This document shows, in pieces, positions 4,073 to 32,921 of a stretch of DNA of 37,923 nucleotides. This DNA comes from a virus (Duplodnaviria > Caudoviricetes): positions 1 through 37,923 of the IMG/VR virus record IMGVR_UViG_3300020045_003931. One strand, 5' to 3'. The position numbers were made by a program, and so were the translations under genes. The stretch's first letter is position 1. Each line of letters starts with the position of its first letter. A model generated the notes under the pieces. The model worked only from the letters and a program-made list of their open reading frames with translations. It searched no databases and was not told the DNA's origin.

Positions 4073-4908
4073 AATTTCCCCCCCTGTCCGTAGTCGATTG
4101 CGGCGAAATTTTCCAGCGCCGGAGCGCGCCTTGTGCCACCACTCGAATTCGGCGGCAACGCCGCAGCCAGCCATTCCAGCGGCTGCAACGGCTTGGCCTT
4201 CATGCACTCCCGCAGCTTTTCGATCAGCATACCGTCGCCGTGGTGCTTTCGCAATCCGCCCAGGAACGACCGCGCCTGCTTCTCGGCCGTCCCGGCATTG
4301 GTCAGCAAAGGCACCCCGTACCCGAAAATGATCTCGTCCGGATCGGTCACTTTTGACGGCTTGCCGTCCGAAGGTTTACCTTCGGAATAGTCTTTAGATG
4401 AAGATGAAGATGACGATGAAGATGACGCATGTGCACGTGAGGGTGAATGGTCGGGTGTGGCCTTTGGTGCTGCATCTATGCCCCCCTTTGGTGAATGGTC
4501 GGGTGTGGCCTTTGGCGCACCCCCATGCTCTCCTCGAAGCACGCGCTTATACTCATCCTCAACCATTCTCGACGAATACCAGACCGGCCCAGGCTGTTGC
4601 GGAATCAGCGTCACCGGAGCGCCATTTTTCCGACCTGAACGAGGAATGAAAACCAGTGGGCCGCATTCTTCATTGATGTCTGCGCCCTTTAGGACGCCCT
4701 TCGAAATAAGGCCGCGAATCTTCTGTGCAGAAGACCCGATGGCCTGTGCAATTTCCTTGACCGTCCAGCGGGCAATGCCGTATGCCTCCTGGTCGTGCAG
4801 GAGGCATATAACATCAATCCAGATGCCTTTTTCTTCGTGCGTGCAGCGCCGCAGGTTGCTATTGGCCTGCCAGTCAGATGGGTAAAACTGGAACGATGGG
4901 CGCTTCAC
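4069..4908 (-). CDS. Phage replication initiator protein (YdaU/DUF1376-like N-terminus)
   Basis: KRPSFQFYPSDW N-terminus, low-complexity linker with repeats and poly-Ser, directly upstream of the DnaC-like gene. Confidence 0.8.
   Translation of the reverse strand: MKRPSFQFYPSDWQANSNLRRCTHEEKGIWIDVICLLHDQEAYGIARWTVKEIAQAIGSSAQKIRGLISKGVLKGADINEECGPLVFIPRSGRKNGAPVTLIPQQPGPVWYSSRMVEDEYKRVLRGEHGGAPKATPDHSPKGGIDAAPKATPDHSPSRAHASSSSSSSSSSKDYSEGKPSDGKPSKVTDPDEIIFGYGVPLLTNAGTAEKQARSFLGGLRKHHGDGMLIEKLRECMKAKPLQPLEWLAAALPPNSSGGTRRAPALENFAAIDYGQGGKL
4442..4515. repeat. 26-bp direct repeat (candidate origin iterons) inside the initiator gene
   Basis: GGTGAATGGTCGGGTGTGGCCTTTGG at 4442-4467 and 4490-4515, next to GATGAA microrepeats at about 4397-4425. 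Confidence 0.6.
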
Positions 4909-5574: not shown

Positions 5575-6002
5575 TCGGTCTCTTTCACGATCCACCTCGC
5601 CCCGCAAACCGACTTACACCACATCACCGGCTTGGCCTGAAGTCCTTGGGTTCCGGGATCGTCTCCGATTAGGAACGCCTGCATAATCGCATCGGTACAT
5701 TGCTCTTTGTTGAGATCGAGACTACTCCCCCCCAGCATGATTAGACCTGCATTCCCTTGGCCACGATCGATCCCCGGCATCAATCGCCACCCCAAGATGG
5801 TGCCGGATATCATATGGCGCCAATCATCTTTCGAGAGGCGGAAACCATGCCACTCTATCTGAGAGGCGAGGTCTCCGCAGGCCGCGTTGAGTAGGTTCCT
5901 TTGGTCTTGGGTCGAATACTCGTCAGCCCAGTTGCGGGCGTCTTTCCGACGGCCCATATCGTTTGAAATCATTCGGTTGTCGGTGTCCAATAATCTGTTC
6001 AC
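5571..6002 (-). CDS. ninB: NinB/Orf-family recombination protein
   Basis: STQDQRNLLNAACGDLASQIEWHGFRLSKDDWRHM...MPGID...MLGGSSLDL pattern. Confidence 0.75.
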   Translation of the reverse strand: MNRLLDTDNRMISNDMGRRKDARNWADEYSTQDQRNLLNAACGDLASQIEWHGFRLSKDDWRHMISGTILGWRLMPGIDRGQGNAGLIMLGGSSLDLNKEQCTDAIMQAFLIGDDPGTQGLQAKPVMWCKSVCGARWIVKETE

Positions 6003-6014
6003 TGTCGATTTTGG

Positions 6015-6033
6015 GGTCTACTTCACGTTATGT
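6015..6033 (+). other. attI-like (array-head) recombination site of the left array
   Basis: GGTCTAC-TTCAC-G|TTATGT: core site with 5-bp spacer and no full attC hairpin. It is at the 5' end of the array in attC orientation and shares GTCTACTT with 17105-17112. Confidence 0.55.
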
Positions 6034-6272
6034 GTCAGCCGTGCATCCGGGTCCGCTCCAAGAATCGCCCGAACCCGCGCAACAAAATCCGCCTTCGTTT
6101 CTCCGTTATACGTCACCACGTCTTGCAGTGCGCGAATCGTTGCAGCCAGTGCGTCGGCGCGGCGCTTCTGTTGCCGTGCCTCAATCCGGTATGCCGTACC
6201 CTCACACTGCCGGCCGCATGTGTCGCCATCGAAAGCGGCATTGCGCTCAGTTTTTTGAAAGTTGTTCTCCAT
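6018..6272 (-). CDS. Cassette L1 hypothetical protein
   Basis: ORF fills the interval between the attI-like site and the first attC; ends THNVK inside the site. Confidence 0.65.
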   Translation of the reverse strand: MENNFQKTERNAAFDGDTCGRQCEGTAYRIEARQQKRRADALAATIRALQDVVTYNGETKADFVARVRAILGADPDARLTHNVK

Positions 6273-6276
6273 TGAC

Positions 6277-6335
6277 GGCTAACAAGTCATTCCACCGGAC
6301 GGCCTTCGGCCGCGCGGTGAATTCCGGCGTTATGC
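6277..6335 (+). repeat. attC site (59 bp)
   Basis: GGCTAAC-AAGTC-ATTCCACC...GGTGAAT-TCCGGC-GTTATGC; extra C in L''. Confidence 0.9.
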
Positions 6336-6542
6336 GTAGCCATTGAACTGCACCGGGGCATCTCCGCCGCGCGCCGCTTTGATCGCGTCAGAAAGCCCGC
6401 CTTTCGGCTTTTCCGGTGGCCTGAGCCATCCCCCGTTAATTTGGTCCGCCAATTCTTGCGCCGCCGCTTCGGTCATGCCTGGGTAGCGAAGGTGGTATTC
6501 CTCACGGCCGTTGTGAATGCACTTACAAACATGGATGCTCAT
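6330..6542 (-). CDS. Cassette L2 hypothetical protein
   Basis: MSIHVCKCIHNGREEYHLRYPG...; stop TAA is supplied by the core site. Confidence 0.7.
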   Translation of the reverse strand: MSIHVCKCIHNGREEYHLRYPGMTEAAAQELADQINGGWLRPPEKPKGGLSDAIKAARGGDAPVQFNGYA

Positions 6543-6566
6543 TTCTTTTTCTCTCAGTGGTAACCG

Positions 6567-6656
6567 GCCTAACAAGCCGGTCAACCTGACGCCCGGAAGC
6601 GGGGCGCGCGCTCTTCAACCTCTCCTGCGCGGGCGCAGGTTACCTACCTGTTAGCC
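6567..6656 (+). repeat. attC site (90 bp)
   Basis: GCCTAAC-AAGCC-GGTCAACC-TGACGCCCG...CGGGCGCA-GGTTACC-TACCT-GTTAGCC. Confidence 0.9.
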
Positions 6657-6947
6657 GGCATTGATCTTCAGCGCCGCAGCGTCTTGTCCGTCGAAATAGC
6701 CGTGGGTGTAGGCGTCCCCTTCTTCCTCCGTGGCGTAGGTGTCGGTGTCTGCCGGTAGGGCATCGGCCAGCATGTACTTCACCATCGCCCGCGCTTGCTC
6801 GGCGTGCAGTAGGTTTGTGCCGCTCGGCATCCCCCATTTCTCTCCGTATTCACGGTCAAACGCTATCCCGGCGTCAGGCGCAAAGTCCTTCGGCAGTTTC
6901 CATCCAAGGAAGCGATCTACCATCTTGTCAATCATCGTTTTGCTCAT
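6651..6947 (-). CDS. Cassette L3 conserved phage hypothetical protein
   Basis: MVDRFLGWKLPKDFAPDAGIAF...GTNLL motif; RBS GGAG; stop inside the core site. Confidence 0.75.
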   Translation of the reverse strand: MSKTMIDKMVDRFLGWKLPKDFAPDAGIAFDREYGEKWGMPSGTNLLHAEQARAMVKYMLADALPADTDTYATEEEGDAYTHGYFDGQDAAALKINAG

Positions 6948-6966
6948 GTCATTCTCCGTAGTAGGT

Positions 6967-6988
6967 GCCGGCTAACTCAGCGTTATGC
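6967..6988 (+). repeat. Collapsed/truncated attC
   Basis: GCCGGCTAAC-TCAGC-GTTATGC; the first 10 nt are the exact complement of the cassette start GTTAGCCGGC (6650-6659). Confidence 0.65.
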
Positions 6989-7411
6989 CTCATGGCCGCC
7001 GAGCATTCCGGGGATGCCGCAGCGCCCATGCAAGGAATTGCCGCGTGATTGTTGGGCGCGGTCAGGAACAGCCGTACTACCAGCGCCGACTTTTGGCGGT
7101 TTCGGCATGGGCATCCATTGCGCAGCCGCCATCTTCTGGTTGCTGTGCCAGAAAATTCCACCAATCCAAGCGCCATGAACAACCTTCCCGTCGCGAACGA
7201 ACAACACTTCTTGCGCCTCCTGCGGCAGTTCTTCGGCAACATCGCGCCATCGCGGCGCCTCTGCAAGTCGTTCAAGCAGGTCGGCGTGTATCTTTTCGTG
7301 GTAGTTGCACAGCTTTGCAAGCTCGTCGCGCTGGGCCGTTACTGCGGCGAGTTCTTTGCTGTGCCGCTCTTGTATTTCGGCGCAAATACGCTGGTGTGTT
7401 GCCGGGTTCAC
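6983..7411 (-). CDS. DUF551-like phage protein
   Basis: RWRDVAEELP...EVLF...QWMPMPKPP motif. Confidence 0.7.
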   Translation of the reverse strand: MNPATHQRICAEIQERHSKELAAVTAQRDELAKLCNYHEKIHADLLERLAEAPRWRDVAEELPQEAQEVLFVRDGKVVHGAWIGGIFWHSNQKMAAAQWMPMPKPPKVGAGSTAVPDRAQQSRGNSLHGRCGIPGMLGGHEA

Positions 7412-7587
7412 TTTGGTTCCTTTGCTCGATTTATCTTGCAGCGTACCCATTCGGCACCGCCAAGCCGCGCCAGCTTTTCCCGCTGCGCCGCCGTCACACG
7501 CAGGGAGAGCGTTACCGTGTCCTCCCCCTGTTTCACTGGCTTGCGACCCTGGCCCCTTCCGGGGCCGCCTCGCTTCGTTTTAATCAC
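7408..7587 (-). CDS. Small DNA-binding protein (RGG/GRKP motif plus ribbon-helix-helix-like), not in ORF track
   Basis: Manual translation MIKTKRGGPGRGQGRKPVKQGEDTVTLSLRVTAAQREKLARLGGAEWVR..., coupled on both sides. Confidence 0.7.
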   Translation of the reverse strand: MIKTKRGGPGRGQGRKPVKQGEDTVTLSLRVTAAQREKLARLGGAEWVRCKINRAKEPK

Positions 7588-7733
7588 AAATCCACCAAGT
7601 TTTCACGGGTCAGCTTCGCGCCCTTTCCTCCCTCAAGAGTGGCCAGCCCTTTTACTTCTTCCGCTATCGCTACGGCCCACATTGCATCGTGCTCTTGCTT
7701 TGCTTCATCGATCATTTTTTGCAGCGCGTTCAT
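7584..7733 (-). CDS. Small hypothetical protein (49 aa), not in ORF track
   Basis: MNALQKMIDEAKQEHDAMWAV...; RBS AGGAG after the promoter. Confidence 0.6.
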   Translation of the reverse strand: MNALQKMIDEAKQEHDAMWAVAIAEEVKGLATLEGGKGAKLTRENLVDL

Positions 7734-7765
7734 TTTGCTTCTCCTTGTGCGTTGTTGATGTTGTT

Positions 7766-7793
7766 ATTGTAATGCGTAATCAAACAATGTCAA
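7766..7793 (-). promoter_or_regulatory. sigma70-type promoter inside cassette L4
   Basis: TTGACA, 16 bp spacer, TACAAT on the minus strand, followed by AAGGAGAAGCAAAATG. Confidence 0.7.
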
Positions 7794-8050
7794 GTCTTTT
7801 CTATCATCACCACAACGCCCATTCCTGAGCGGTATTCATAATCATCGCTAAACCTTTCTCGCCATGCGTCAAGCTCATCACGCAATGCCGCGTTTTCATT
7901 TTGCAGTGCTGCGTTATGTTCCATCCGCATGTACTTAACAGATAAGGTCATCCCTGCGAATTGCTTGGAATAATGTAGGCAATCTGATGAAACAACCGCC
8001 TTGCAAACCGGGCAGTAATACCCAGCTTTAATGCAAACATCGGCCTTCAT
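7790..8050 (-). CDS. Hypothetical protein
   Basis: Coupled ORF with CxxC and a coiled-coil segment. Confidence 0.6.
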   Translation of the reverse strand: MKADVCIKAGYYCPVCKAVVSSDCLHYSKQFAGMTLSVKYMRMEHNAALQNENAALRDELDAWRERFSDDYEYRSGMGVVVMIEKT

Positions 8051-8493
8051 GACTTCTCCCTCAGCACCATTTCGTCAAGCCTAGTCTGGGCCGGATCTTC
8101 TTCAGGCTTCATGCACTCCCCGCATTCGTGGTCGCTGCATAAGCAATCGCCAACCTGAACCATCCGCACATCTTTAGGTAACCGCATGCCCCAAAGGCGG
8201 TTCTGTGCCAAATCAGCATCTTCATCCGTTGCTTTGCGCATACCGGTCGCCACGTCTTCCGGCAGCGGCTTGGTTACGTCACCGCTTAGAACCCGGTTCA
8301 ACGTGTGCCTTGCGCGGCTTTGCGCCCACATCACGAATTCGTAAGGCGATCTCCGCACGTCAGGGTCAAAATCCCGCCACTCTGCTGTGGCGATGTTCTC
8401 CAGTTCTTCGCAAAGTGCATCCACCTGCCGCTTGAGTTCTTCAATTTCCTCGTCTCGTGGTTTCAGCATTTCTTCAACCAGTTTCGGGTTCAT
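8047..8493 (-). CDS. Hypothetical protein
   Basis: Coupled ORF with a coiled-coil N-terminus. Confidence 0.65.
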   Translation of the reverse strand: MNPKLVEEMLKPRDEEIEELKRQVDALCEELENIATAEWRDFDPDVRRSPYEFVMWAQSRARHTLNRVLSGDVTKPLPEDVATGMRKATDEDADLAQNRLWGMRLPKDVRMVQVGDCLCSDHECGECMKPEEDPAQTRLDEMVLREKS

Positions 8494-8756
8494 ATCGCCC
8501 CCATCGGAGAGTAGTTGCGGTAAATTTTTACTTCATCCAAACAGCCTACACATGGGCCTACCGTTACCGTCGCCGCGTGTTTGCAAGATGAGCATTCCCC
8601 CGTGTCTTCCTCTCCTCCAATTAGAAATTCCATTGCCGCACATCCTTCGTGCCATAGGTCAAGATCCACGACCATCACCGCGCCGTCGTCGCCTTCCATT
8701 TCCTCACTGTTGTGGAATAGCTTGGCCAGCGAGTTAAGTGCTTCGTCTTTGTCCAT
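8490..8756 (-). CDS. Hypothetical protein
   Basis: RBS AAAGGA; Cys-rich C-terminus. Confidence 0.65.
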   Translation of the reverse strand: MDKDEALNSLAKLFHNSEEMEGDDGAVMVVDLDLWHEGCAAMEFLIGGEEDTGECSSCKHAATVTVGPCVGCLDEVKIYRNYSPMGAI

Positions 8757-8781
8757 TTCCGTTCCTTTCGTTATCGTTAAT

Positions 8782-8849
8782 GCATAACACGTCGCTCAAC
8801 ACGGACGCAGGCGATAAAGCCGCCTGCGCCGGTTAGCTAGGCGTTGGGC
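8782..8849 (+). repeat. attC site (68 bp)
   Basis: GCATAAC-ACGTC-GCTCAAC...GGACGCAGGCG-loop-CGCCTGCGCC-GGTTAGC-TAGGC-GTTGGGC. Confidence 0.9.
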
Positions 8850-9204: not shown

Positions 9205-9855
9205 TTATGGTGTGTTGATGTAGTCATATGCCGTAGGCTCCGGTCTTGTTATTGCCATAAGTTTCGCAATAGTTGATTCAATCTCGCCGACGAAAACCTT
9301 CACCGAGTTTTCGTATTCAATTACAAGGTCATCATTGCGCAGCAGTCGAACGATAAACAGCCGCATATCCTCTGGCATTCTCGGGTCGTAGCTGGCAAAG
9401 TCGCACCACTTTCGGCCAGTGCATGCCATCTGCCAAATCATTTGTGGAACGTAATCAGGCGGCGGCTTTCCGGCTACCAGATAGTTGATGTGCGTTTTCG
9501 TATTCGGACACTTTATCTCCACCAATCCATCATCATCAATCAGTCCATCAGGGGATGCGCCAGACCATTTAATGGTCGGGTGTTTGATAAATCCAACCTC
9601 TTCAACCATACAATTTGTTTTCAGTTCGTACGCAGCGCGTGCCATTGGCTCGTTCAGCGTTCCCCATTCCATGGCCGCATTGGTGAACCCGTTTTCGATC
9701 ACCCCGGTGAGGCGTTGCGCTACCAGTTCAGCGCGGTAGTTCGCTCGCGTAGCCGCTTCTCCGCTCTTGATCGTCGCCAGAACATCCCTCATCCTGGATG
9801 CGGTAACGTGTCCGAGCCGGTCAATCTTCCATGCGTCTGTTCCCTGGTCGTTCAT
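9205..9855 (-). CDS. YqaJ/lambda-exonuclease-family recombinase exonuclease
   Basis: QGTDAW..RLGHVTAS, WGTLNEP, GASPDGL, VEIKCP, Q..WQM. Confidence 0.92.
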   Translation of the reverse strand: MNDQGTDAWKIDRLGHVTASRMRDVLATIKSGEAATRANYRAELVAQRLTGVIENGFTNAAMEWGTLNEPMARAAYELKTNCMVEEVGFIKHPTIKWSGASPDGLIDDDGLVEIKCPNTKTHINYLVAGKPPPDYVPQMIWQMACTGRKWCDFASYDPRMPEDMRLFIVRLLRNDDLVIEYENSVKVFVGEIESTIAKLMAITRPEPTAYDYINTP

Positions 9856-10478
9856 TTCTTCGCCACCAGGATGGCTTTTAGATCGGCCGTTTTCTTTGAG
9901 ATAATCCGGAACGCAGCAGGATCGGGCCATTCCATCGCGGCCTTTTTCGCGGCCAGGTAGGCAGACTGTAGCGCTTCAATCGTCTCGGCAGATTCCAGCG
10001 CAACGATATGTGTATCGAGTGGGAATTCGCCCTTTTCCGTATGCCTGGATTCCTCATCTTCGCCGGTTTCAATTTCGAACAACTTGAGCACCGCGTACTT
10101 TTTTGCGTAGCTGATCGCCTTCCCCGGGGCCTTGTCCTGATTATCCATCGCGTGAGCTTCCATCCGAATAATCAGATCGTCCTTGGGGTCGTCCGCATTC
10201 ACAAACCGGAAATCATAGGTCGCCTCGTATCGAATCATGTTCGACGGAGCGCCGTCTTTTCCAAGCGGGATGGCAATGTTTGACGAAATCAGGGACGGGA
10301 TGCAGATAATTCCCTGCTCTACGAGGTGATGCCTGATAACGCCTGTTACTTCATCGTGCGTGACAGCCTTATACGATCCGCCGCCCGTGGATACCGCCTT
10401 ATTCTTCTGTATGTAATCGACCTGCTTGCGTACCTCGTTGATGCGCTGAAACAGGTTCTTTGCCTTTGATTCGGACAT
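9852..10478 (-). CDS. ERF-family single-strand annealing protein
   Basis: DNQDKAPGKAISYAKKYAVLKLFEIETGED motif; paired with the exonuclease. Confidence 0.85.
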   Translation of the reverse strand: MSESKAKNLFQRINEVRKQVDYIQKNKAVSTGGGSYKAVTHDEVTGVIRHHLVEQGIICIPSLISSNIAIPLGKDGAPSNMIRYEATYDFRFVNADDPKDDLIIRMEAHAMDNQDKAPGKAISYAKKYAVLKLFEIETGEDEESRHTEKGEFPLDTHIVALESAETIEALQSAYLAAKKAAMEWPDPAAFRIISKKTADLKAILVAKK

Positions 10479-10735
10479 TGCCCCCCCTTGACTATTGATT
10501 GTGGTCATCTCAAAGCCTCCCCCTTCCCATTACGGGAAAAGAGAGGGTAGGTCATCCCCGATAAACGGGAGTCGCATGCTTGTTTCCAAGTCCCCGGACG
10601 TGCGACTAAAGCCAGTCCCGCCGATTGTGAGAGGTAGTTGCCTCTGTGCCTTGCGGCCTACGGCGTACCCTTTTATTCAGCGCTGCCGGGTATGGGCACT
10701 TGATCCGCTCGGAGTGCGGACGGATGCCAAAGAAA

Positions 10736-11736: not shown

Positions 11737-11843
11737 CGCCTACCGGGTGATTCAGCTAGCGCGGCGTGTCGGCGGTGCCATTGACGCATTGATAACTGAC
11801 GGTTCCCATCGGCTTGCGGCATTCACTTGTTGCTGCAAGTGAC

Positions 11844-11907
11844 CAAACTATAAACAAAATATTTTGCTAATGCAATAGACAAAACAAAATATTTTGTTTA
11901 TAGTTTG
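11844..11907. promoter_or_regulatory. Back-to-back divergent early promoters with palindromic operators
   Basis: Perfect 23-bp inverted repeat (11844-11866 / 11885-11907). Right promoter TAGACA-17-TATAGT, left promoter TTGCAT-17-TATAGT, with CAAAATATTTTG in each spacer. Confidence 0.85.
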
Positions 11908-11928
11908 CCCATCGAACAAGGGGGCACC

Positions 11929-12123
11929 ATGAACATAGAACAACTGGTTAAACGATACGGCGACGACAACGTAGCCATTGGGCGGGAGATTTGCTACACG
12001 CCGCAATCAATCCGCAACTGGCGCAGGAAAGGCAAAATCCCGATGGTTGCGCAAAGAACCATTGAGGCGATTACTGGCGGGGCGCTGAAGGCTGACAAGA
12101 AACCTAAGAGGGTGCGGGCATGA
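11929..12123 (+). CDS. Cro-like HTH regulator
   Basis: AIGREICYTPQSIRNWRRKGKIP...IEAITGGALKAD; first gene after the rightward promoter. Confidence 0.8.
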   Translation: MNIEQLVKRYGDDNVAIGREICYTPQSIRNWRRKGKIPMVAQRTIEAITGGALKADKKPKRVRA

Positions 12124-12206: not shown

Positions 12207-12812
12207 ATGGCTGATGAATACATGATTCGCACGGTGACGGACTTCGCCGGGATACCAGAGGACAAACTGCTCGAATGCCTGAGTGACTTTATGCAGTTCC
12301 TGGCGATGGTTCGCCACTCGGCGAAGTTTGACCAAGAAATGCAAATGGCCTTTGAACTGCCGGAAGGCTCGCTGAATCTCGACACTGACGTTTTCCATTG
12401 GATAGACGACGGACGCCGCGAATGCTCGGCGCTGGATTTTGTAGCGAAGGAAACCGGCGAGACGGTGGGGCGGATGGACTTGCCCTCCAACGCACGAGTT
12501 CAGGCCGACGCCGAGAGCTTGGCCGGCGACCGCGCTGCGGAAGACGCGAGAGACATTGCGGAGGCCCATGAGCGGAAAACCATCACGGCAGTCGAACGTG
12601 TTCGAGAACTTGACGCCGGGATCGAACTGCTGCGCGAGGCCGTCATCAGTCGGCGCGAATGCCACAAGGCGTACAGCGAAATTACAGGCACCATCGCGGG
12701 ACGAGTCCCGACGCGAGAGGAACGAGATAAAGAGGTAGCGCTTCGTTCGGCGATTGGGATGGCTGAACGCGCGGTCATGGATGCGGCGGAATATCTGACG
12801 CCCAACGACTGA
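12207..12812 (+). CDS. Cassette hypothetical protein (probable fusion of two cassettes)
   Basis: Internal half-attC at 12482-12510 is read as LPSNARVQAD; ends TPND inside the attC. Confidence 0.7.
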   Translation: MADEYMIRTVTDFAGIPEDKLLECLSDFMQFLAMVRHSAKFDQEMQMAFELPEGSLNLDTDVFHWIDDGRRECSALDFVAKETGETVGRMDLPSNARVQADAESLAGDRAAEDARDIAEAHERKTITAVERVRELDAGIELLREAVISRRECHKAYSEITGTIAGRVPTREERDKEVALRSAIGMAERAVMDAAEYLTPND

Positions 12813-12866
12813 ATTGAGGCGACTGCGCGGCTTCTTGCGCAGTTCGCCTCGAATGATGGGTTCGGC
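12800..12866 (-). repeat. attC site (67 bp)
   Basis: Minus strand: GCCGAAC-CCATC-ATTCGAGG...CCTCAAT-TCAGTC-GTTGGGC. Confidence 0.9.
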
Positions 12867-12892
12867 GGCAACCTGTAAGCATTACTTACCAG

Positions 12893-13210
12893 TTGGATGA
12901 ATTGAAAATGCCAATTGAACCACACGAAGAAACAGAAGCAATCGACAGGCTGTTCTTGGAGTTGTCGCAATTCACAAAGGCAAAGACCAAGCGCGATTTG
13001 CAGCTTGACGCGCTAATCATGGCCGTGGAGCGCAAGTTCCCCGGAGAGACGCGCTTTGAAACGGCTCTGCGGTACATACGGGAAGCAGAGTCTACAAGCT
13101 CTGTGGCAACGGCAGCAGTGACGCCCAACGTTGAAGTTCAGGGGCGTGCCGGCATTATCGGCACGTCCGCTGGAACGACGGGTTCGACCACACGGGAGCC
13201 AACAGAGTGA
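12893..13210 (+). CDS. Cassette hypothetical protein
   Basis: AIDRLFLELSQFTKAKT...FPGETRFETALRYI; reads through the whole attC 13123-13188. Confidence 0.7.
   Translation: MDELKMPIEPHEETEAIDRLFLELSQFTKAKTKRDLQLDALIMAVERKFPGETRFETALRYIREAESTSSVATAAVTPNVEVQGRAGIIGTSAGTTGSTTREPTE
13123..13188 (-). repeat. attC site (66 bp)
   Basis: Minus strand: GTCGAAC-CCGTC-GTTCCAGC...CCTGAAC-TTCAAC-GTTGGGC. Confidence 0.9.
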
Positions 13211-13716
13211 GCCTGAGCGGACACCAAAGCGCGGCGATGAAAAACGACGAGTGGCTGACGCCGCCCGAGATCCTGCGCACCCTCGGGGCGTTCGATCTTG
13301 ACCCGTGTGCGCCAATAGTCAGGCCGTGGGAGACGGCGGCCCAGCACTACACGGCGCAAGACGACGGGCTGGCCCTGCCTTGGTTTGGGCGCGTTTGGTG
13401 CAACCCGCCATTCGGGCGTGAGGCAGTGAAGTGGCTGCGGAAGATGCGCGACCACGGAAACGGGGTGGCCTTGATCCCGGCGCGCACCGAGACGGCGATG
13501 TTTTACGAAACAGTGTGGGGAGCGGCAGACGGCGTGCTGTTCCTCAAAGGGCGCCCGCACTTCCACTACGTTTGCGGACGGCGGGCGGATTTCAACAGCG
13601 GCGCACCCATTGCCTTGGTGGCCTACGGAAGCGACAACCTGGAAGCACTCAGGCATAGCGGCCTCGGGTTCGTGGTAGTGGGGTCGAACGCCGGAATTCA
13701 CCGCGCGGCCGAATGA
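13207..13716 (+). CDS. Phage DNA N6-adenine methyltransferase (phage Dam family) cassette
   Basis: DEWLTPP, FDLDPCA, catalytic VWCNPPF, LIPARTET. Confidence 0.9.
   Translation: MSLSGHQSAAMKNDEWLTPPEILRTLGAFDLDPCAPIVRPWETAAQHYTAQDDGLALPWFGRVWCNPPFGREAVKWLRKMRDHGNGVALIPARTETAMFYETVWGAADGVLFLKGRPHFHYVCGRRADFNSGAPIALVAYGSDNLEALRHSGLGFVVVGSNAGIHRAAE
13683..13713 (-). repeat. Half attC (L'-R' arm only)
   Basis: 27 nt identical (inverted) to 6305-6331; the other arm is absent. Confidence 0.8.
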
Positions 13717-13796
13717 ACGAAGGCTACCTGCTCGACGTGAGCGACCGGATGTACTGGGACAACGTGTGCGCGAGCCTGAGCCAAAGTGATTGAAGG

Positions 13797-13860
13797 GGCT
13801 AACGCATGAAATCAGGGGCAGGCCGCTTTTGGCCTGTCCCGCTGGATTGACGGGTTAGGG
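13797..13860 (-). repeat. attC site (64 bp)
   Basis: Plus strand: GGCTAAC-GCATGA-AATCAGG-GGCAGGCC...GGCCTGTCCC-GCTGGATT-GACGG-GTTAGGG. Confidence 0.88.
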
Positions 13861-13868
13861 GGAGACAA

Positions 13869-14123
13869 ATGAAAGAGATTGTTGGCGCGAAAATCGGGAC
13901 ACTGATTACTAACAACCGGAGAACCATTTCCGAGGCGGTGGAGCGAAACGCGGTCACGGAATTCCTTGACCGCAAACACATGCAGTTTATGGCCGCGATG
14001 GACTTGGGGCGAAATTGGGAACTGATGGCGAGCGGGCCGACTTTGTTTTGCATAGATGACAACGGGAAACCGCAGCCCCATAACGTAGAGCTAACCGGCG
14101 CTGCGCGCCACGGACAGGAGTAG
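13869..14123 (+). CDS. Cassette hypothetical protein
   Basis: RBS GGGGGAG overlaps the core site; ends HNVELTGAARHGQE inside the next attC. Confidence 0.7.
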   Translation: MKEIVGAKIGTLITNNRRTISEAVERNAVTEFLDRKHMQFMAAMDLGRNWELMASGPTLFCIDDNGKPQPHNVELTGAARHGQE

Positions 14124-14200
14124 ATGCGATGACGACCGAGACACCACAAACGACAGCGACTCCCGCTGGCGCAGCGTCCGAGTTGAGCGCAGGGTTAGAT
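14078..14200 (-). repeat. attC site (123 bp) with stop codon, RBS and start codon in its loop
   Basis: Plus strand: CCATAAC-GTAGA-GCTAACC-GGCGCTGCGC...GCGCAGCGTCCG-AGTTGAGC-GCAGG-GTTAGAT. Confidence 0.88.
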
Positions 14201-14428
14201 GGTCTTGCGAAATCGGCTGGATTCAAGCGGACGAAAATGCACAAATCTCTTCGACGGTTTGCTGAGCTAGTTGCAGCCGCAGAACGCGAGGCGTGCGCCA
14301 AGGTTTGCGATAAGCGGGTGATGTACCCGGATGGATGCGATGTTGCAAAAACGTGCGCCATTGAGATACGTGAGCGCTCTAACGCAAAGGTAACCGGCGC
14401 TCAACAGCGCGCACCGGAAGCCGAGTAA
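14129..14428 (+). CDS. Cassette hypothetical protein
   Basis: LRRFAELVAAAEREACAKVC...CAIEIRER motif common in phages; starts and ends inside attC loops. Confidence 0.75.
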   Translation: MTTETPQTTATPAGAASELSAGLDGLAKSAGFKRTKMHKSLRRFAELVAAAEREACAKVCDKRVMYPDGCDVAKTCAIEIRERSNAKVTGAQQRAPEAE

Positions 14429-14479
14429 ACCACTGCGGACGCGCGCTGTTGAGCGTCCGCGTTCACCGCCGGGTTAGCC
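14377..14479 (-). repeat. attC site (103 bp)
   Basis: Plus strand: CTCTAAC...GGTAACC-GGCGCTCAACAGCGCG...CGCGCTGTTGAGCGTCC-GCGTTCACC-GCCGG-GTTAGCC. Confidence 0.9.
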
Positions 14480-14499
14480 GGCAGATCGGAGAGGGCGCA

Positions 14500-14850
14500 A
14501 TGGACAGGGACGACGACCTGCACAATTACCTCAGAACGCAGTTCAGCGACTTCGAATGGGCAAAGGCCTTCATGTGGCGATGGGTGAATGAGATGGACCA
14601 AGAACTGCCGGGATTTGGGTTGATTAGCTCGCGGTCTTTGGCTGCGCATTGCAGCGCCGTACTTGAGAACGCGCAGGTCCAGATGATTGGCTCGACCACG
14701 AACTATATGGCGAGCAAATACGGGAGCGAACTGTACTGGGCCGCGTGGGGCGACCCGCCGGCTAACGTAGAGTTCAGCGGGACTCCGGCGGCATCATCGC
14801 CGGAGGCTCCGCTGGAACGCCGGGTTGGGCCTAGCGCACAAGAGGAATGA
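14500..14850 (+). CDS. Cassette hypothetical protein
   Basis: RBS GGAGAGGG; reads through attC 14760-14830. Confidence 0.7.
   Translation: MDRDDDLHNYLRTQFSDFEWAKAFMWRWVNEMDQELPGFGLISSRSLAAHCSAVLENAQVQMIGSTTNYMASKYGSELYWAAWGDPPANVEFSGTPAASSPEAPLERRVGPSAQEE
14760..14830 (-). repeat. attC site (71 bp)
   Basis: Plus strand: GGCTAAC-GTAGA-GTTCAGC-GGGACTCCGGCG...CGCCGGAGGCTCC-GCTGGAAC-GCCGG-GTTGGGC. Confidence 0.9.
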
Positions 14851-14853
14851 GAA

Positions 14854-15111
14854 ATGGACAAAGAAATAGCGGCGTGGCGTGAGCGGTTCCCTCGGTACGA
14901 ATACCGACCGCAGGACGAATGTGTGGCGCTGAAGTTTGAATGCGCATACGGATGCCACTGCGACCTTGACCCCGGCATGACGCCTGACAAGTGCGTGCTT
15001 GACGAGGGGCGCTCATTTGATTGCACGAAGGCTCAGCAACTACTCCGCGATGGGAAGGGGCGCAACGATTGCGACGATTGGAAGCCAATTGTCGAGAGGC
15101 CCAACGTGTGA
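14854..15111 (+). CDS. Cassette Cys-rich hypothetical protein
   Basis: YGCHCDL...CVLD...C...CDDW; ends RPNV. Confidence 0.7.
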   Translation: MDKEIAAWRERFPRYEYRPQDECVALKFECAYGCHCDLDPGMTPDKCVLDEGRSFDCTKAQQLLRDGKGRNDCDDWKPIVERPNV

Positions 15112-15156
15112 CTTCAGGGGCGCCGGAACGGCGTCCCTTGCAAGGATGGGTTCGGC
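15099..15156 (-). repeat. attC site (58 bp)
   Basis: Plus strand: GCCCAAC-GTGTGA-CTTCAGG-GGCGCC...GGCGTCC-CTTGCAAG-GATGG-GTTCGGC. Confidence 0.82.
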
Positions 15157-15192
15157 GTCTTGCCGGAGCCGACTTTTGAAGGGAACGAGGAC

Positions 15193-15423
15193 ATGAAACT
15201 GTTTGTGTGGTGCGATCCGTATCAAGTGACTTACGGCTCCGCGATGGTGTTTGCTGTCGCGGCGACCGAGACTGCGGCCAAGAAGCAAGCTGCAAAAGGA
15301 CTGGCGTACAAGTACGGGAAATATAGGCAAGACGGAAGCATGGCTGATTTGGCTGGCAGACTCGGGAAGCCTGACCGCGTTGTCGACCTGCCGTGCGCCG
15401 AGTGGCATGAGTGGTCGGAATGA
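15193..15423 (+). CDS. Cassette hypothetical protein
   Basis: RBS GAGG; MKLFVW...FAVAATETAAKK. Confidence 0.7.
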   Translation: MKLFVWCDPYQVTYGSAMVFAVAATETAAKKQAAKGLAYKYGKYRQDGSMADLAGRLGKPDRVVDLPCAEWHEWSE

Positions 15424-15427
15424 AGAC

Positions 15428-15497
15428 GCCGAACGCCGAGTGAAGGGGCGATGCGCGGCCTTATCGCGCAGCGTCCCGCTTGCATGCCGGGTTATGT
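15428..15497 (-). repeat. attC site (70 bp)
   Basis: Plus strand: GCCGAAC...GTGAAGG-GGCGATGCGCG...CGCGCAGCGTCC-CGCTTGCAT-GCCGG-GTTATGT. Confidence 0.82.
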
Positions 15498-15513
15498 TTC
15501 ACGAAGGAAGAGA

Positions 15514-16056
15514 ATGGACAACTTGCAAGAAAAACCAAGCAACGCCACTTTTGCCGGCAGGCGGGTTTTAGACCCGTGCTGCGGCAGCCGGATGATGTGG
15601 TTTGACCGGAAACACCCTGACGCCGTGTTCGGTGACAAGCGCACCGAGCAGCACACGCTTTGCGATGGACGGACGCTGCGCATTGAGCCTGACATGCAGA
15701 TGGATTTCACGGCCCTGCCGTTTGACGACGGCGCGTTCCGGCTTGTGGTGTTCGATCCTCCGCACTTGCACACCGCCGGCCCGAAAAGTTGGATGGCAGC
15801 GAAGTACGGAAAGCTTACCGGAGACTGGAGCGAAGACTTGCGCAAGGGGTTTGCCGAATGTTTCCGCGTGCTGGCCAGCGACGGTGTTCTGATTTTCAAA
15901 TGGAACGAAACACAGGTGAAGATTCGTGAAGTGCTGGCGCTGACGCCCGAGCAACCGCTATTCGGACACCCGACCGGACGCAAAGGGCTGACCCACTGGT
16001 ACGTGTTCATGAAACATAACGCAGAAATAACCGGCCGCGCCAGCGGTCCGGGTTGA
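15514..16056 (+). CDS. SAM-dependent (probable DNA amino-) methyltransferase cassette
   Basis: VLDPCCGSRM SAM-binding motif, VVFDPPH catalytic-type motif, GVLIFKWNE. Confidence 0.85.
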   Translation: MDNLQEKPSNATFAGRRVLDPCCGSRMMWFDRKHPDAVFGDKRTEQHTLCDGRTLRIEPDMQMDFTALPFDDGAFRLVVFDPPHLHTAGPKSWMAAKYGKLTGDWSEDLRKGFAECFRVLASDGVLIFKWNETQVKIREVLALTPEQPLFGHPTGRKGLTHWYVFMKHNAEITGRASGPG

Positions 16057-16070
16057 TTGACGGGTTAGGA
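16014..16070 (-). repeat. attC site (57 bp)
   Basis: Plus strand: ACATAAC-GCAGA-AATAACC-GGCCGC...GCGGTCCG-GGTTGATT-GACGG-GTTAGGA. Confidence 0.9.
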
Positions 16071-16076
16071 AACGAC

Positions 16077-16283
16077 ATGAGCGTAAGAGTAAAGACACTG
16101 GACAAAGCTGTGGCAGAAGCCAAGCGGTTTTTGGAAGCGGCAGACGTTGTGAAACGGTGCGCTGGAAGCGCCGAATACACCAAAGGCGATCCTTGGTACT
16201 GCGGCGGCCAGCATTGTGCAGCAGCGAAGCGGGCAAGTATGGATTTGTCGAAGGCGCTGGCCGATGTGCGGCGCGGTTCCTAA
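16077..16283 (+). CDS. Cassette hypothetical protein
   Basis: AVAEAKRFL...AAAKRASMDLSKALADVRR; stop TAA inside the core site. Confidence 0.75.
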   Translation: MSVRVKTLDKAVAEAKRFLEAADVVKRCAGSAEYTKGDPWYCGGQHCAAAKRASMDLSKALADVRRGS

Positions 16284-16348
16284 CGACCCGAATTCAGGGG
16301 CCGCACGCGGCCCTATCGCGGGCGGTCCCCTGGAATGAGTTGTTAGGG
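16278..16348 (-). repeat. attC site (71 bp)
   Basis: Plus strand: TCCTAAC...ATTCAGG-GGCCGC...GCGGTCC-CCTGGAAT-GAGTT-GTTAGGG. Confidence 0.9.
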
Positions 16349-16356
16349 GCCAACGC

Positions 16357-16869
16357 ATGGCGACCACCAAGACAAGTTGCCCACAGTGCGGCGCTGCGTT
16401 TGAAGCGGAAACCGGGAGGATGAACCGGGCGCTGAAGATCGGAGCACCACTGTACTGCGGCCGCGCATGCGCAGGACTGGCGCGACGACTGACAAGCCCG
16501 CCAACGGAAGCAGAGCGGAAAGAGGCAAAGCGACTTTATGACGCGCGGCGACGAGTTGAGAAGGAGGAAGAAATCAAGGCCAAGAAGCGCGACTACTTCA
16601 AGCGCACCTATGACCCAGCCAAGGCTGCGGCTGAACGCAAGGAAAGGATGCCAAGGCACGTTGAATACTGCCGGAGGCCGGAATACAAGGCTTGGAAGCG
16701 CGAGTACGACAGGCGCCACTTGGCCGAGAAGAAGTTTGGCGAGTTCGCCGAAGTAGCACTGTTGTTGCAGGACATAGAGCGGGAGGTTGAGCAGCGCGCT
16801 ACGCGCTACGAGATATACCGCACCAATGGAACACTCAATAAAGCGCAAACGCGCAGGAGATCATTATGA
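16357..16869 (+). CDS. Cassette hypothetical protein, Zn-finger-like and basic
   Basis: CPQC...YCGRAC; very Arg/Lys-rich. Confidence 0.75.
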   Translation: MATTKTSCPQCGAAFEAETGRMNRALKIGAPLYCGRACAGLARRLTSPPTEAERKEAKRLYDARRRVEKEEEIKAKKRDYFKRTYDPAKAAAERKERMPRHVEYCRRPEYKAWKREYDRRHLAEKKFGEFAEVALLLQDIEREVEQRATRYEIYRTNGTLNKAQTRRRSL

Positions 16870-17084
16870 CCACGATTACCAAGGAACTGAACGCCACCAA
16901 CCTGAAAAACGCCCTTTGGGAGACGCTCCAAGACATCAAGGCCGGCACGGTTCAACCCGGCCAAGGTGACGCCATCGCATCCCAGGCGCGGGAGATTCTG
17001 CGCACGGTGAAGGTGCAGCTTCAGGTGACGAACCAGTCGAAACGCAGCGTGCCGGCTGACGTGATCCAGTTCGCGGAGAAGTGA
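16866..17084 (+). CDS. Second gene of the two-gene cassette, hypothetical
   Basis: ATGA-coupled to the previous gene. Confidence 0.75.
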   Translation: MTTITKELNATNLKNALWETLQDIKAGTVQPGQGDAIASQAREILRTVKVQLQVTNQSKRSVPADVIQFAEK

Positions 17085-17094
17085 AGAACATGGC

Positions 17095-17113
17095 CCCTAA
17101 CACTAAGTAGACG
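17095..17113 (-). other. attI-like (array-head) site of the right array
   Basis: Minus strand: CGTCTAC-TTAGT-G|TTAGGG; no R'' box upstream; same GTCTACTT as the left terminus. Confidence 0.55.
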
Positions 17114-31603: not shown

Positions 31604-32320
31604 TTATCCCGTAGTCCCCGAGAAAATATTGAAGCGCCCGATGCGCCCCACCATCGACGACGGAATCGCCATTACATCGCCCGGATTGTTGATCCGCTTG
31701 ATGTCCCGCTTCGAGGCCATTGCAAGGCGTTGCACGGTCGGAGGCGGCTCTACGCCAAACTCGGCCGCGATCTCGCACGCCAGGTTGAACTTGAACGCGC
31801 GACGATAGCCAGGAGGTAGCACAAGGCTGGTGGCCAGTACCGCCGGTTGGCTAAGTTCCGTTACGCTGACGAAATGGAATTCCAGATCCTTCGTCGGCAC
31901 GGGATAGACCTTCATGGTCGCGTCCGGCACGTCCATGTTGACCCACAGCAGCTTTGGGTAGGTGCTGGTGACCGTTTTCAGGGCAATGCCGTTGTATTGC
32001 TGCTGGTTAATGAGCATCAGACCAAACGACAGGCCCGAATCTGTATCCCTGAAATAGGTAGATGCGTCGAGCTCAACTGGTCGATTGCCGACAAAATCAC
32101 CCGTCGGCCCGATGGTACGGGATGCCGTATTCGCCGGCCAGGTAAAAACCTGATCCTGCGTAGAGAAAACCGCCAGCCGTTCGATTGACCAGCTATCAAG
32201 CATCGTATTCAGCGCTTCGAGCGCGTCCGCAGACGTTTCAGCAGACGGCGTTTCACCCTCGGCAAGCTGGCCGATTAGCCGAAGTGCTGCGTTGATTTCG
32301 TCACCGGCACTAGTTGACAT
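31604..32320 (-). CDS. Head-to-tail adaptor (P22 gp4-like)
   Basis: ALRLIGQLAEGETP...DALEALNTMLDSW; FNLACEIAAEFG. Confidence 0.8.
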   Translation of the reverse strand: MSTSAGDEINAALRLIGQLAEGETPSAETSADALEALNTMLDSWSIERLAVFSTQDQVFTWPANTASRTIGPTGDFVGNRPVELDASTYFRDTDSGLSFGLMLINQQQYNGIALKTVTSTYPKLLWVNMDVPDATMKVYPVPTKDLEFHFVSVTELSQPAVLATSLVLPPGYRRAFKFNLACEIAAEFGVEPPPTVQRLAMASKRDIKRINNPGDVMAIPSSMVGRIGRFNIFSGTTG

Positions 32321-32921
32321 TTGACCCCTCGCTGAGTTGCTTTCGTTGTTCCCACGTTTTTTTCATTCGTTCAGATATTTTCGCCCGCTCCTCTAGGCTA
32401 TATTCCCTTCCAGCAGCCCGCTTGTTTCCCATCAGCGACATAGAAATCTTGGCTTTCGAAGCATCTGAAAGTCTTTTGCCTTTCCCAATTTCTGATAACA
32501 ATTTCCTTTGCTCTTCCTTTATCACGCATCCCTTTTTTGCTGCTGAAATATTCGCGCAATGCTCTGCTGAAAATCTGCGCCCCTTGTGCGCCGCACTCAT
32601 TTTTTCTTTCGTCTCTTCGGTATGACGTGTTCCGAATGGGGAATGTGCTACAGGCCGTCCGTTATAAGTTGGCTTGAAAAAATCTATCCAAAACTGCTCT
32701 CGCTCTATAAGCTTCGACTTGTCTTCCACAAGCTGAATTATTTCACAATTGAAAATATCTAATCCATATTTATTAACTGCGTTTTGTAACTTGGGGCTAT
32801 GGTGAGTCCCACGCTTAAGCGCATATTTGTGCCCCTTCCATCTGCGCCTCACAGAAATAGCCGATCCGACATACATATCTTTGGTTATGCTATTCACTAT
32901 TGCGTAAATAGCGGTAGCCAT
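32310..32921 (-). CDS. Free-standing GIY-YIG homing endonuclease with NUMOD3 repeats
   Basis: AIYAIVN...MYVGS, RWKGH, EREQFWI, HTEETKEKMS / SAEHCANIS repeats; AT-rich relative to flanks. Confidence 0.9.
   Translation of the reverse strand: MATAIYAIVNSITKDMYVGSAISVRRRWKGHKYALKRGTHHSPKLQNAVNKYGLDIFNCEIIQLVEDKSKLIEREQFWIDFFKPTYNGRPVAHSPFGTRHTEETKEKMSAAHKGRRFSAEHCANISAAKKGCVIKEEQRKLLSEIGKGKRLSDASKAKISMSLMGNKRAAGREYSLEERAKISERMKKTWEQRKQLSEGSNVN

What the first reader, a model, noticed from the sequence alone, without database searches (positions are those of the whole stretch)
12800..17101. Cassette ends are complementary, and the match decays with distance from the array head
Seen: the two ends of each cassette are inverted complements, as expected if each was a circle opened at its attC. 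From the head inward the matches are GTTAGGGGCCA/TGGCCCCTAAC (11/11; 16342, 17101), GTTAGGAA/TTCCTAAC (8/8), GTTATGTTTCA/TGAAACATAAC (11/11), GTTCGGCGTCTT/AAGACGCCGAAC (12/12), GTTGGGCCT/AGGCCCAAC (9/9) and GTTAGCCGGC/GCCGGCTAAC (10/10). Further out most cassettes match only 6/7 (the Dam cassette is an exception at 8/8), and all half sites lie in the distal part. Inference: this reflects real site-specific integration of circular cassettes, with the newest near 17.1 kb, as in integrons.
Basis: partly seen in the sequence, partly recalled or inferred. Interest (0 to 1): 0.88.

Follow-up and report, generated by a model that had tools for sequence, protein, structure and literature searches.

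The report
Phage integron arrays with reversed genes
A phage with no integrase gene in its held sequence carries two rows of swappable integron-type gene cassettes, each headed by a docking site of the kind found in bacterial integrons but with the genes facing backwards, and it likely borrows its host's integrase to shuffle them.

Summary
The end matches are real: all six head-proximal values check out, and own ends beat shuffled pairings (82 vs 42±6, p=5e-6). The match is a textbook trait of integron cassettes, not a novelty. The decay is a step (cassettes 1-6 perfect, 7-10 not; p≈0.01). It is weak in other phage arrays, absent in bacterial arrays and not seen in this phage's second array. 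The larger picture holds up well. This P22-like phage has no tyrosine recombinase but two arrays (10 and 3 intact attC), each headed by a site of the attI family that sits beside intI in Methylotenera, Gallionella and relatives. So the head at 17.1 kb is right. Genes run antisense to attC polarity (phage 67:3, bacteria 7:55). Cassette 1 recurs elsewhere with its boundaries at or within two bases of the G|TT crossover, and homologues of cassettes 5, 7, 8 and 10 switch neighbours at that point. Much cargo is ordinary phage genes that lack att sites in relatives, and phage-type cassettes sit at the head of a bacterial integron. Likely: host IntI acts in trans on a reversed-polarity cassette pool. 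This scan noted similar arrays in at least 38 other genomes; my searches found none in print.

The parts
17095..17113 (-). attI-like head of the right array (L box GTCTAC, 5-nt spacer, crossover G|TT at 17101)
   Evidence: same GTCTACTT-N3-GTT core as sites beside bacterial intI genes; upstream flank and spacer differ from every host site seen
16284..17100 (-). cassette 1 with its attC (attC1 16278-16348); two genes on + (16357-16869, 16866-17084); 11-bp end match
   Evidence: 95%-identical copy with other neighbours in run X1; same gene pair without att sites in 9 of 9 phage loci
16014..16284 (-). cassette 2 (gene 16077-16283 on +) and attC2 16014-16070; 8-bp end match
15428..16020 (-). cassette 3: DNA methyltransferase (15514-16056 on +, reads into attC2) and attC3 15428-15497; 11-bp end match
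   Evidence: (phrog_954)
15099..15434 (-). cassette 4 (gene 15193-15423 on +) and attC4 15099-15156; 12-bp end match
14760..15105 (-). cassette 5 (gene 14854-15111 on +) and attC5 14760-14830; 9-bp end match
14377..14766 (-). cassette 6 (gene 14500-14850 on +, reads through the whole of attC5) and attC6 14377-14479; 10-bp end match
14078..14383 (-). cassette 7 (gene 14129-14428 on +, starts inside the loop of its own attC) and attC7 14078-14200; 6 of 7
13797..14084 (-). cassette 8 (gene 13869-14123 on +) and attC8 13797-13860; 6 of 7
13683..13715 (-). half attC (R' box and one arm), the arm identical to that of the attC at 6277-6335
   Evidence: (read directly)
13123..13689 (-). cassette 9: Dam-like N6-adenine methyltransferase (13207-13716 on +) and attC9 13123-13188; 8/8 to the half site
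12800..13129 (-). cassette 10 (gene 12908-13210 on +) and attC10 12800-12866; 6 of 7
12207..12812 (+). most distal gene, reading through a half site at about 12485-12491; likely a fusion of decayed cassettes
   Evidence: fusion is inferred
11838..12123 (+). central control region: mirror-symmetric AT-rich inverted repeat, sigma-70-like promoter 11876-11904 and a Cro-like gene 11929-12123; likely start of both early operons
   Evidence: consensus match only, not above shuffles; PF14549
6009..6033 (+). attI-like head of the left array (crossover G|TT at 6027), 18 bases up to the GTT identical to the attI beside Methylotenera and Gallionella intI genes
6027..8849 (+). left array: intact attC at 6277-6335, 6567-6656 and 8782-8849, a collapsed attC at 6970-6988 and R'-type remnants at 7051 and 7913; genes on -
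   Evidence: block 7411-8845 shared with phage locus L158 from the G|TT of attC 8782-8849

Best explanation
The stretch is one of two integron-type cassette arrays in a P22-like phage that encodes no tyrosine recombinase in its held sequence: ten attC hairpin sites in one polarity behind an attI-family site at 17.1 kb, with the cargo genes on the opposite strand, likely recombined by the integron integrase of a betaproteobacterial host acting in trans. Shown: attC anatomy and polarity, attI family membership, crossover at G|TT, reshuffled neighbours, reversed genes, no recombinase. Inferred: during infection the host IntI would excise cassettes as circles (attC x attC) and insert circles at the phage attI sites, so that the newest cassette lies at 17.1 kb and the own-end match is the R''/R' stem of the circle. 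Because both attI sites lie at the promoter-distal ends of the two divergent early operons, only antisense cassettes would be expressed by the phage, host-type cassettes captured there would be silent, and phage-type cassettes captured by the host integron would be silent too. Genes often read through the crossover into the neighbouring attC or into a stop codon in attI, so each shuffle changes a protein's tail.
For: Polarity: 10 attC on - and 3 on +, none on the wrong strand or elsewhere in 37.9 kb; 1 weak hit in 20 shuffled strands. attI: the GTCTACTT-N3-GTT core lies 119-171 bases from a full-length intI in 7 loci (TIGR02249 at 479 and 477 bits for the two tested), and 5 more fetched stretches hold both; sequence after GTT varies among loci, as at an insertion point. 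Crossover: a 1534-nt contig holds 16284-17101 with 38 differences and continues into another attC instead of attI; L158 shares 7411-8845 at about 90% from the G|TT of attC 8782-8849; four proteins of one cluster related to cassette 5 are identical up to the Asn coded by AAC and then have four different tails, two cassette-10 homologues do the same, and the attC5-coded tail ends 27 of 27 tail-only hits, 17 of them with the cassette-5 leader, including homologues of cassettes 7 and 8. Orientation: phage cassettes 67 antisense, 3 sense, 10 undecided of 80; bacterial 55 sense, 7 antisense, 22 undecided of 84. No PF00589 match in this genome or in 5 of 5 other array phages, 2 of them complete. Twin opposite attI sites about 11 kb apart recur in G407 and G408. 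Traffic: antisense phage-type cassettes head a Methylotenera chromosomal integron and L256; sense cassettes sit first behind both attI sites of G407.
Against: No recombination, circle or excision junction of this phage was observed; only contigs of two runs holding small parts were laid. The host is not identified. The right head matches no host attI exactly, and the short core alone is not enriched over its reversed control in 401 genomes. The contig lacks about 2.5 kb (most of the large terminase and the start of the portal gene), so a recombinase there is not excluded. The phage encodes Erf-like and RecE-like proteins that could rearrange arrays by homology; the far end of the block shared with L158 (7411) is not an att site, and the neighbour of cassette 1 in run X1 seems to lack the two T of G|TT. 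The left array's head cassette matches only 4 of 7. My attC detector and orientation caller are heuristic and were tuned on this window; 3 of 7 discordant or undecided calls checked by eye were wrong.
Confidence: 0.75

Rival explanations
1. The cassettes are genuine but now fossil in this phage: IntI built them earlier, and the arrays are inherited and rearranged by the phage's own homologous recombination across similar attC arms.
For: No integrase; Erf-like and RecE-like genes at 9205-10508; decayed distal sites, a collapsed attC and a 4/7 head in the left array; the L158 block ends at a non-att point on one side.
Against: Six perfect cassettes in a row behind an intact attI; a 95%-identical cassette 1 with other neighbours; many different tails at one codon; a different first cassette behind the same attI core in each phage, where homology gives no reason for a fixed breakpoint.
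Confidence: 0.15
2. A phage-encoded or helper-element recombinase, not the host IntI, drives the arrays.
For: About 2.5 kb of the genome is not held; earlier scan notes describe phage arrays beside their own recombinases (not checked here).
Against: The gap lies between two adjacent packaging genes; two complete array phages also lack PF00589; the left attI core is identical to host attI sites.
Confidence: 0.06
3. These are ordinary host cassettes inserted backwards through top-strand recombination.
For: Genes are antisense to the attI; top strands recombine at low frequency (PMC9892861, passage read).
Against: A flipped cassette would flip its attC body too; here the attC bodies have the normal polarity towards attI and only the gene is reversed, the body stays with the R'' side, and the cargo is phage-like.
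Confidence: 0.02
4. The hairpins are terminators or RNA elements and the end matches are chance among similar GTT cores.
For: All cores share GTT, which gives 3 matches for free.
Against: Permutation p=5e-6 with the shared GTT counted on both sides; no Rfam match; asymmetric extrahelical bases in one polarity.
Confidence: 0.01

Closest known systems
[quoted passage not shown] 2023, PMC9892861 (parts 2-4 of 7 of the text read: results, discussion, legends; supplements not read)
   Same: attC arrays in phages without intI; DNA methyltransferase cargo; their phage attC sites recombined with attI1 under IntI1.
   Different: Here each array has an attI-family head, there are two arrays in opposite polarity, and genes are antisense to attC. 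That paper calls its virulent-phage cassettes typical in layout and reports an attI only in a cryptic Shewanella prophage and in captured bacterial integrons. Its supplements could hold unremarked antisense cases.
Sedentary chromosomal integrons of betaproteobacteria (loci L082 Methylotenera, L092 Gallionella, L110, L114, L135, L136) and of Permianibacter (L086)
   Same: Same attI core, similar attC sites, same 7-bp end match extended by about 2 bases on average (2.1 in 71 bacterial, 2.6 in 53 phage cassettes).
   Different: They carry intI and mostly sense genes (55 sense, 7 antisense); the phage arrays lack intI, are antisense and are likely read from the far end.
Classical attC and cassette anatomy; Bouvier et al. 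2009, PMC2727003 (passages read)
   Same: R''-L''/L'-R' stem, extrahelical G that sets the strand, crossover in R', self-pairing extended to 9-11 nt for most cassettes.
   Different: That paper ties polarity to expression from Pc; here polarity is kept but the gene is reversed, may start inside the attC loop and often reads through R'.
Cassettes inserted at attG genome sites; Loot et al., bioRxiv 10.1101/2022.09.11.507474 (passages read)
   Same: IntI acting outside its own platform; excision at nearby sites can take along flanking DNA, a possible route to new cassettes.
   Different: attG insertions give single cassettes at scattered sites; here ordered arrays lie behind attI-family sites.

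Membership tests
integron gene cassette / attC | R'' (AAC) and R' (GTT) boxes with L''/L' arms forming an imperfect hairpin of about 57-141 bp | tested here: met
   10 sites of 57-123 bp in this array, 3 in the left array; size range from PMC5371416 (passage)
integron gene cassette / attC | extrahelical G in L'' on one strand, giving one polarity | tested here: met
   all sites in one polarity per array and none on the other strand; by eye 8 of 10 have the canonical base, attC6 a C, attC4 unclear; the detector demands an extra base, so only the strand bias is an independent test
integron gene cassette / attC | a cassette's own R' and R'' are complementary, often for 9-11 nt | tested here: met
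   cassettes 1-6 and 9; not 7, 8, 10
integron gene cassette / attC | crossover at G|TT of R', the attC body travelling with the R'' side | tested here: met
integron gene cassette / attC | gene read towards its attC (sense polarity) | tested here: not met
   all right-array genes are on +, all attC on -
integron gene cassette / attC | recombined by IntI as a folded bottom strand | not testable with these tools
   needs a recombination assay
complete integron | intI gene beside attI | tested here: not met
   no PF00589 match in G000; no integrase among 71 ORFs; about 2.5 kb of the genome not held
complete integron | attI site at the head of the array | tested here: met
   by homology to intI-adjacent sites; left head near-identical, right head a variant; function untested
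complete integron | Pc promoter upstream of attI that expresses the first cassettes | tested here: inconclusive
   no consensus promoter facing into the right array; a weak 9/12 match at 5784 faces the left array; genes point the other way; consensus scan not above shuffles
CALIN in phages (Qi et al. 2023) | two or more attC sites with no intI nearby | tested here: met
attG-inserted single cassettes | isolated attC at a site unrelated to attI or attC | tested here: not met
   ordered arrays behind attI-family sites

The most novel reading that the evidence does not exclude
These phages are cassette factories and run a mirror-image integron on the host's enzyme. Ordinary phage accessory genes are packaged de novo with attC sites in reversed polarity, the R''-side end being copied from the gene's own 3' end (in cassette 3 the extra match lies on Met-Lys codons kept in 59 of 63 homologues, and a second phage packages the same gene family with another attC and another 5' boundary). 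Reversed polarity keeps host anti-phage cassettes silent in the phage and phage cassettes silent in the host while both pools pass through one attI family. This would make the origin of integron cassettes testable in a lytic phage growing on an intI+ host.
Probability: 0.35. Interest if true: 0.9.

Novelty: new variant of a known kind. Interest (0 to 1): 0.7.

Why it matters
The end match alone is ordinary integron biology. What matters is the system that it proves to be real. Integrons are seen as bacterial stores of adaptive genes, many of them anti-phage (bioRxiv 10.1101/2024.07.02.601686, abstract start and passages read). Here phages hold the same docking sites, fill them with their own genes in the opposite polarity and appear to trade cassettes with the host array in both directions. 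How cassettes are first made is 'largely unknown' (PMC5371416, passage read). This phage offers gene families in both states, free and packaged, at up to 80% DNA identity, which allows the packaging step to be studied. Read-through into the neighbouring attC also means that shuffling rewrites protein tails, and explains attC-coded peptides at the ends of many unannotated proteins (27 such hits for one attC).

Tried and rejected
A plain fold-based attC scan was too noisy; a first arm-based detector found 5 of the 10 sites and was replaced. Rfam: no match. The exact right-head 15-mer found 3 viral loci, none with attC downstream. 50 of 60 viral matches to the left-head 15-mer lacked the extended motif and, but for stray hits, attC sites; 18 of 28 genome matches lacked both attC sites and an intI. 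The short attI core is not enriched over its reversed control in 401 genomes, so it is evidence only with intI or attC beside it. No viral locus for the cassette-5 gene and one weak, frame-doubtful hit for the gene behind the right attI. Annotated phage records matched only the two methyltransferases among the 40 of 101 rows shown. Sequencing runs: two holders at 0.06 share, contigs only, no RNA holder listed; no test of circles or expression was possible; the other joints have sides under 30 bases and were set aside as matches among similar attC sites. Replication direction as the cause of polarity was considered and set aside, because the two arrays have opposite polarity on the same side of the likely origin (inference). 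A general decay of the end match with distance was tested and is not established. Literature: 9 searches listed no paper on integrase-less phage arrays with attI and antisense genes; subscription journals and supplements are not covered.
Full report
What the window is. The 37,923-base window is a whole viral record, classed linear and 100% complete by CheckV, but it starts inside the large terminase gene and ends inside the portal gene, so about 2.5 kb is missing (my estimate from the portal profile coverage). Structural genes are P22-like (portal, coat, head closure, ejection proteins). No tyrosine recombinase was found by PF00589 or among 71 ORFs scanned with PHROGs. Two early gene blocks run away from a central region at 11.8-12.1 kb that holds a mirror-symmetric repeat, a promoter-like site and a Cro-like gene.

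Checking the observation. Runs were 11, 8, 11, 12, 9, 10, 6, 4, 8, 3 contiguous bases from the head outwards; cassettes 7, 8 and 10 match 6 of 7. The sum, 82, was never reached in 200,000 random pairings (mean 42.1, sd 6.2); 2 of 90 foreign pairs reach 8. Rebuilding each circle in silico gave the most stable attC with the cassette's own head for cassettes 1-6 (rank 1 of 10) and not for 7-10. The Dam value of 8/8 needs the half site at 13689; against the next intact attC it is 5 of 7. The trend with distance is significant in this array (rho -0.73, p=0.012) but is a step after cassette 6. Bouvier et al. (PMC2727003, passage) state that for most cassettes the pairing extends beyond 7 nt to 9-11 nt, so the match is expected of any real cassette; bacterial cassettes fetched here extend by 2.1 bases on average (71 cassettes) and phage ones by 2.6 (53).

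Does the decay generalise? Weakly at best. In other phage arrays 7/7 ends were found in 16 of 19, 17 of 24, 10 of 19 and 3 of 6 cassettes at ranks 1, 2-3, 4-6 and 7+ (ranks 1-3 against the rest p=0.059; an earlier, smaller tally gave rho -0.09, p=0.54, and Fisher p=0.03). Missed attC sites merge cassettes and inflate distal mismatches. Bacterial arrays show no decay (17/22, 17/27, 13/17, 17/18). In this phage's second array the head cassette matches 4 of 7 and the third 11 of 11.

Polarity and the two heads. A detector that uses the extrahelical bases found 10 attC sites on the minus strand between 12800 and 16348 and 3 on the plus strand between 6277 and 8849, none on the opposite strands and none elsewhere; scores were 9.9-15.3 against one hit of 7 in 20 shuffled 5.5-kb strands (the detector was tuned on this window). 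In both arrays the genes lie on the other strand. Each array ends, on its classical upstream side, in the same motif, GTCTACTT-N3-GTTA (6016 on +, 17112 on -). A scan of bacterial genomes with the left head gave 28 loci; in three the site lies 119-145 bases from a divergent full-length intI (L082 Methylotenera, L086 Permianibacter, L092 Gallionella; TIGR02249 at 479 and 477 bits for the two tested). A looser pattern in 401 genomes of the order of G001 matched 52 genomes, no more than the reversed control, but 4 of the 29 loci examined again had a full-length intI 131-171 bases away, and 5 more of the stretches fetched later held one. The letters after GTT differ from locus to locus. The heads are therefore members of a betaproteobacterial attI family by homology; the left one is near-identical to host sites, the right one a variant.

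The same layout elsewhere. Of 60 viral matches to the left head, 10 loci share the extended motif and 9 of these have attC sites downstream in the same polarity. A second scan gave 18 loci, several with arrays. G407 and G408 each have two attI sites in opposite orientation about 11 kb apart, as here; G408 is complete, has 10 and 3 attC sites and shares no DNA with the window beyond an attC. None of five such phages has PF00589. A heuristic orientation call on cassettes up to 1100 bases gave 67 antisense, 3 sense and 10 undecided in phage loci (12 from this window; L081, L102 and L108 classed as phage by layout only; one cassette counted twice) and 55 sense, 7 antisense and 22 undecided in bacterial loci. 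Of 7 odd calls checked by eye, 3 were wrong, each towards the expected polarity.

Cassettes in other contexts. A 1534-nt contig in run X1 holds window 16284-17101, cassette 1 with its attC, with 38 differences; beyond 17101 it enters another attC instead of attI, and beyond 16284 a different gene whose R' box seems to lack two bases. Phage locus L158 shares 7411-8845 at about 90%; the match begins at the G|TT of attC 8782-8849, after which the cores differ, while the other end is not an att site. Proteins give more cases, because antisense genes read through the crossover, whose AAC codes Asn: four members of one cluster related to cassette 5 are identical up to that Asn and then have four different tails; two cassette-10 homologues change tail at the same point; 27 of 27 tail-only hits to the cassette-6 protein end in the attC5-coded peptide, 17 with the cassette-5 leader, and two of these are homologues of cassettes 7 and 8. 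The attC body thus travels with the R'' side, as in classical bottom-strand recombination, which excludes simple backward insertion of host cassettes.

Where the cargo comes from. The gene pair of cassette 1 occurs in 9 other viral loci, in none with an attC or an end repeat over 4 bases; the closest (L064, 80% DNA identity, match ending at the stop codon) has attC sites elsewhere. Of the best 80 of 599 homologues of the cassette-3 methyltransferase, 1 lies in an antisense cassette (L158), with another attC and another 5' boundary but the AAC at the same codon. In the window the four bases by which cassette 3's match exceeds the core lie on Met-Lys codons kept in 59 of 63 distinct homologues, so the non-coding copy upstream of the gene matches ancestral coding sequence. 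That suggests copying from the gene end, or selection for it, when the cassette was made; it is one case. Cargo with a name: two DNA methyltransferases, likely against host restriction (inference; Qi et al. propose the same).

Traffic with hosts. In the Methylotenera assembly the intI lies beside fic, ilvD and aldose-epimerase genes, and by eye the first five cassettes are antisense and phage-like (a PHROG match, a C5 methyltransferase), followed by a sense cassette. L256 has an antisense first cassette beside a full-length intI, and G407 has sense cassettes first behind both attI sites. These are assemblies from mixed samples, so a mis-join cannot be excluded.

Mechanism. Shown: anatomy, polarity, attI family, crossover point, shuffled neighbours, missing recombinase. 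Inferred (0.75): the host IntI recombines these arrays during infection; the attI sites lie at the far ends of the two early operons, so reversed cassettes are expressed and host-type ones are silent. Rivals: fossil arrays moved by the phage's Erf- and RecE-like proteins (0.15), a recombinase in the missing DNA or a helper (0.06), backward insertion (0.02), chance (0.01).

Comparison and novelty. It meets the definition of a phage CALIN (PMC9892861; parts 2-4 of 7 read) and is not a complete integron. It differs from the cases in that text by attI heads, twin arrays and reversed genes. Nine literature searches listed no description of this layout; subscription journals and supplements were not seen. 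Earlier notes of this scan report similar arrays in at least 38 genomes and twin or fourfold attI heads; none concerns this stretch, and I did not check them. Verdict: observation essentially right, its decay clause weak, interpretation supported; a new variant of a known kind; interest 0.7.

Noticed in passing
window 6970-6988: Collapsed attC: an R'' box, five bases and an R' box with the whole body gone, behind a cassette whose ends still match 11/11; it could be the scar of a crossover in the L boxes.
   Followed up: no
window 6027-6038 and 6272-6283: The head cassette of the left array mismatches in 3 of the 7 core bases but matches again at positions 8-11, as if only the core had been replaced.
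   Followed up: no
window 13683-13715; 6277-6335; L004 3888-3949: One attC body occurs intact in the left array, as a half site in the right array and at 98% identity in phage G407, each time with other genes: attC templates are reused.
   Followed up: partly
window 14078-14200; L158 3917-4013; L005, L011, L030, L238: Long attC sites carry the ribosome-binding site and start codon of their own antisense gene inside the terminal loop.
   Followed up: partly
window 6018-6020 and first cassettes of L004, L011, L022, L030, L034, L082: The L box of attI supplies a TAG stop on the antisense strand, so first-position genes that read through the crossover end there with a short tail such as PNVK.
   Followed up: partly
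L082 5006-6530 (G002:C153): A Methylotenera chromosomal integron has about five antisense phage-type cassettes at its head, two of them much richer in G+C than the contig.
   Followed up: partly
window 7411-7800: A strong promoter-like site (11/12, 7793 on -) with a small gene and a small possible DNA-binding gene sits inside the left array and is part of the block shared with L158.
   Followed up: no
window 4430-4520: Direct repeats inside the replication-initiator-like gene upstream of the DnaC-like loader look like origin iterons.
   Followed up: no
window 32310-32921: A GIY-YIG/HNH-type homing endonuclease lies among the head-completion genes, in an A+T-rich patch.
   Followed up: no
L064 5.5-7.2 kb; L034 4370 and 7013: L064 has attC sites on both strands but no GTCTAC-type head in the stretch held; L034 has two attI-like heads in tandem.
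   Followed up: no
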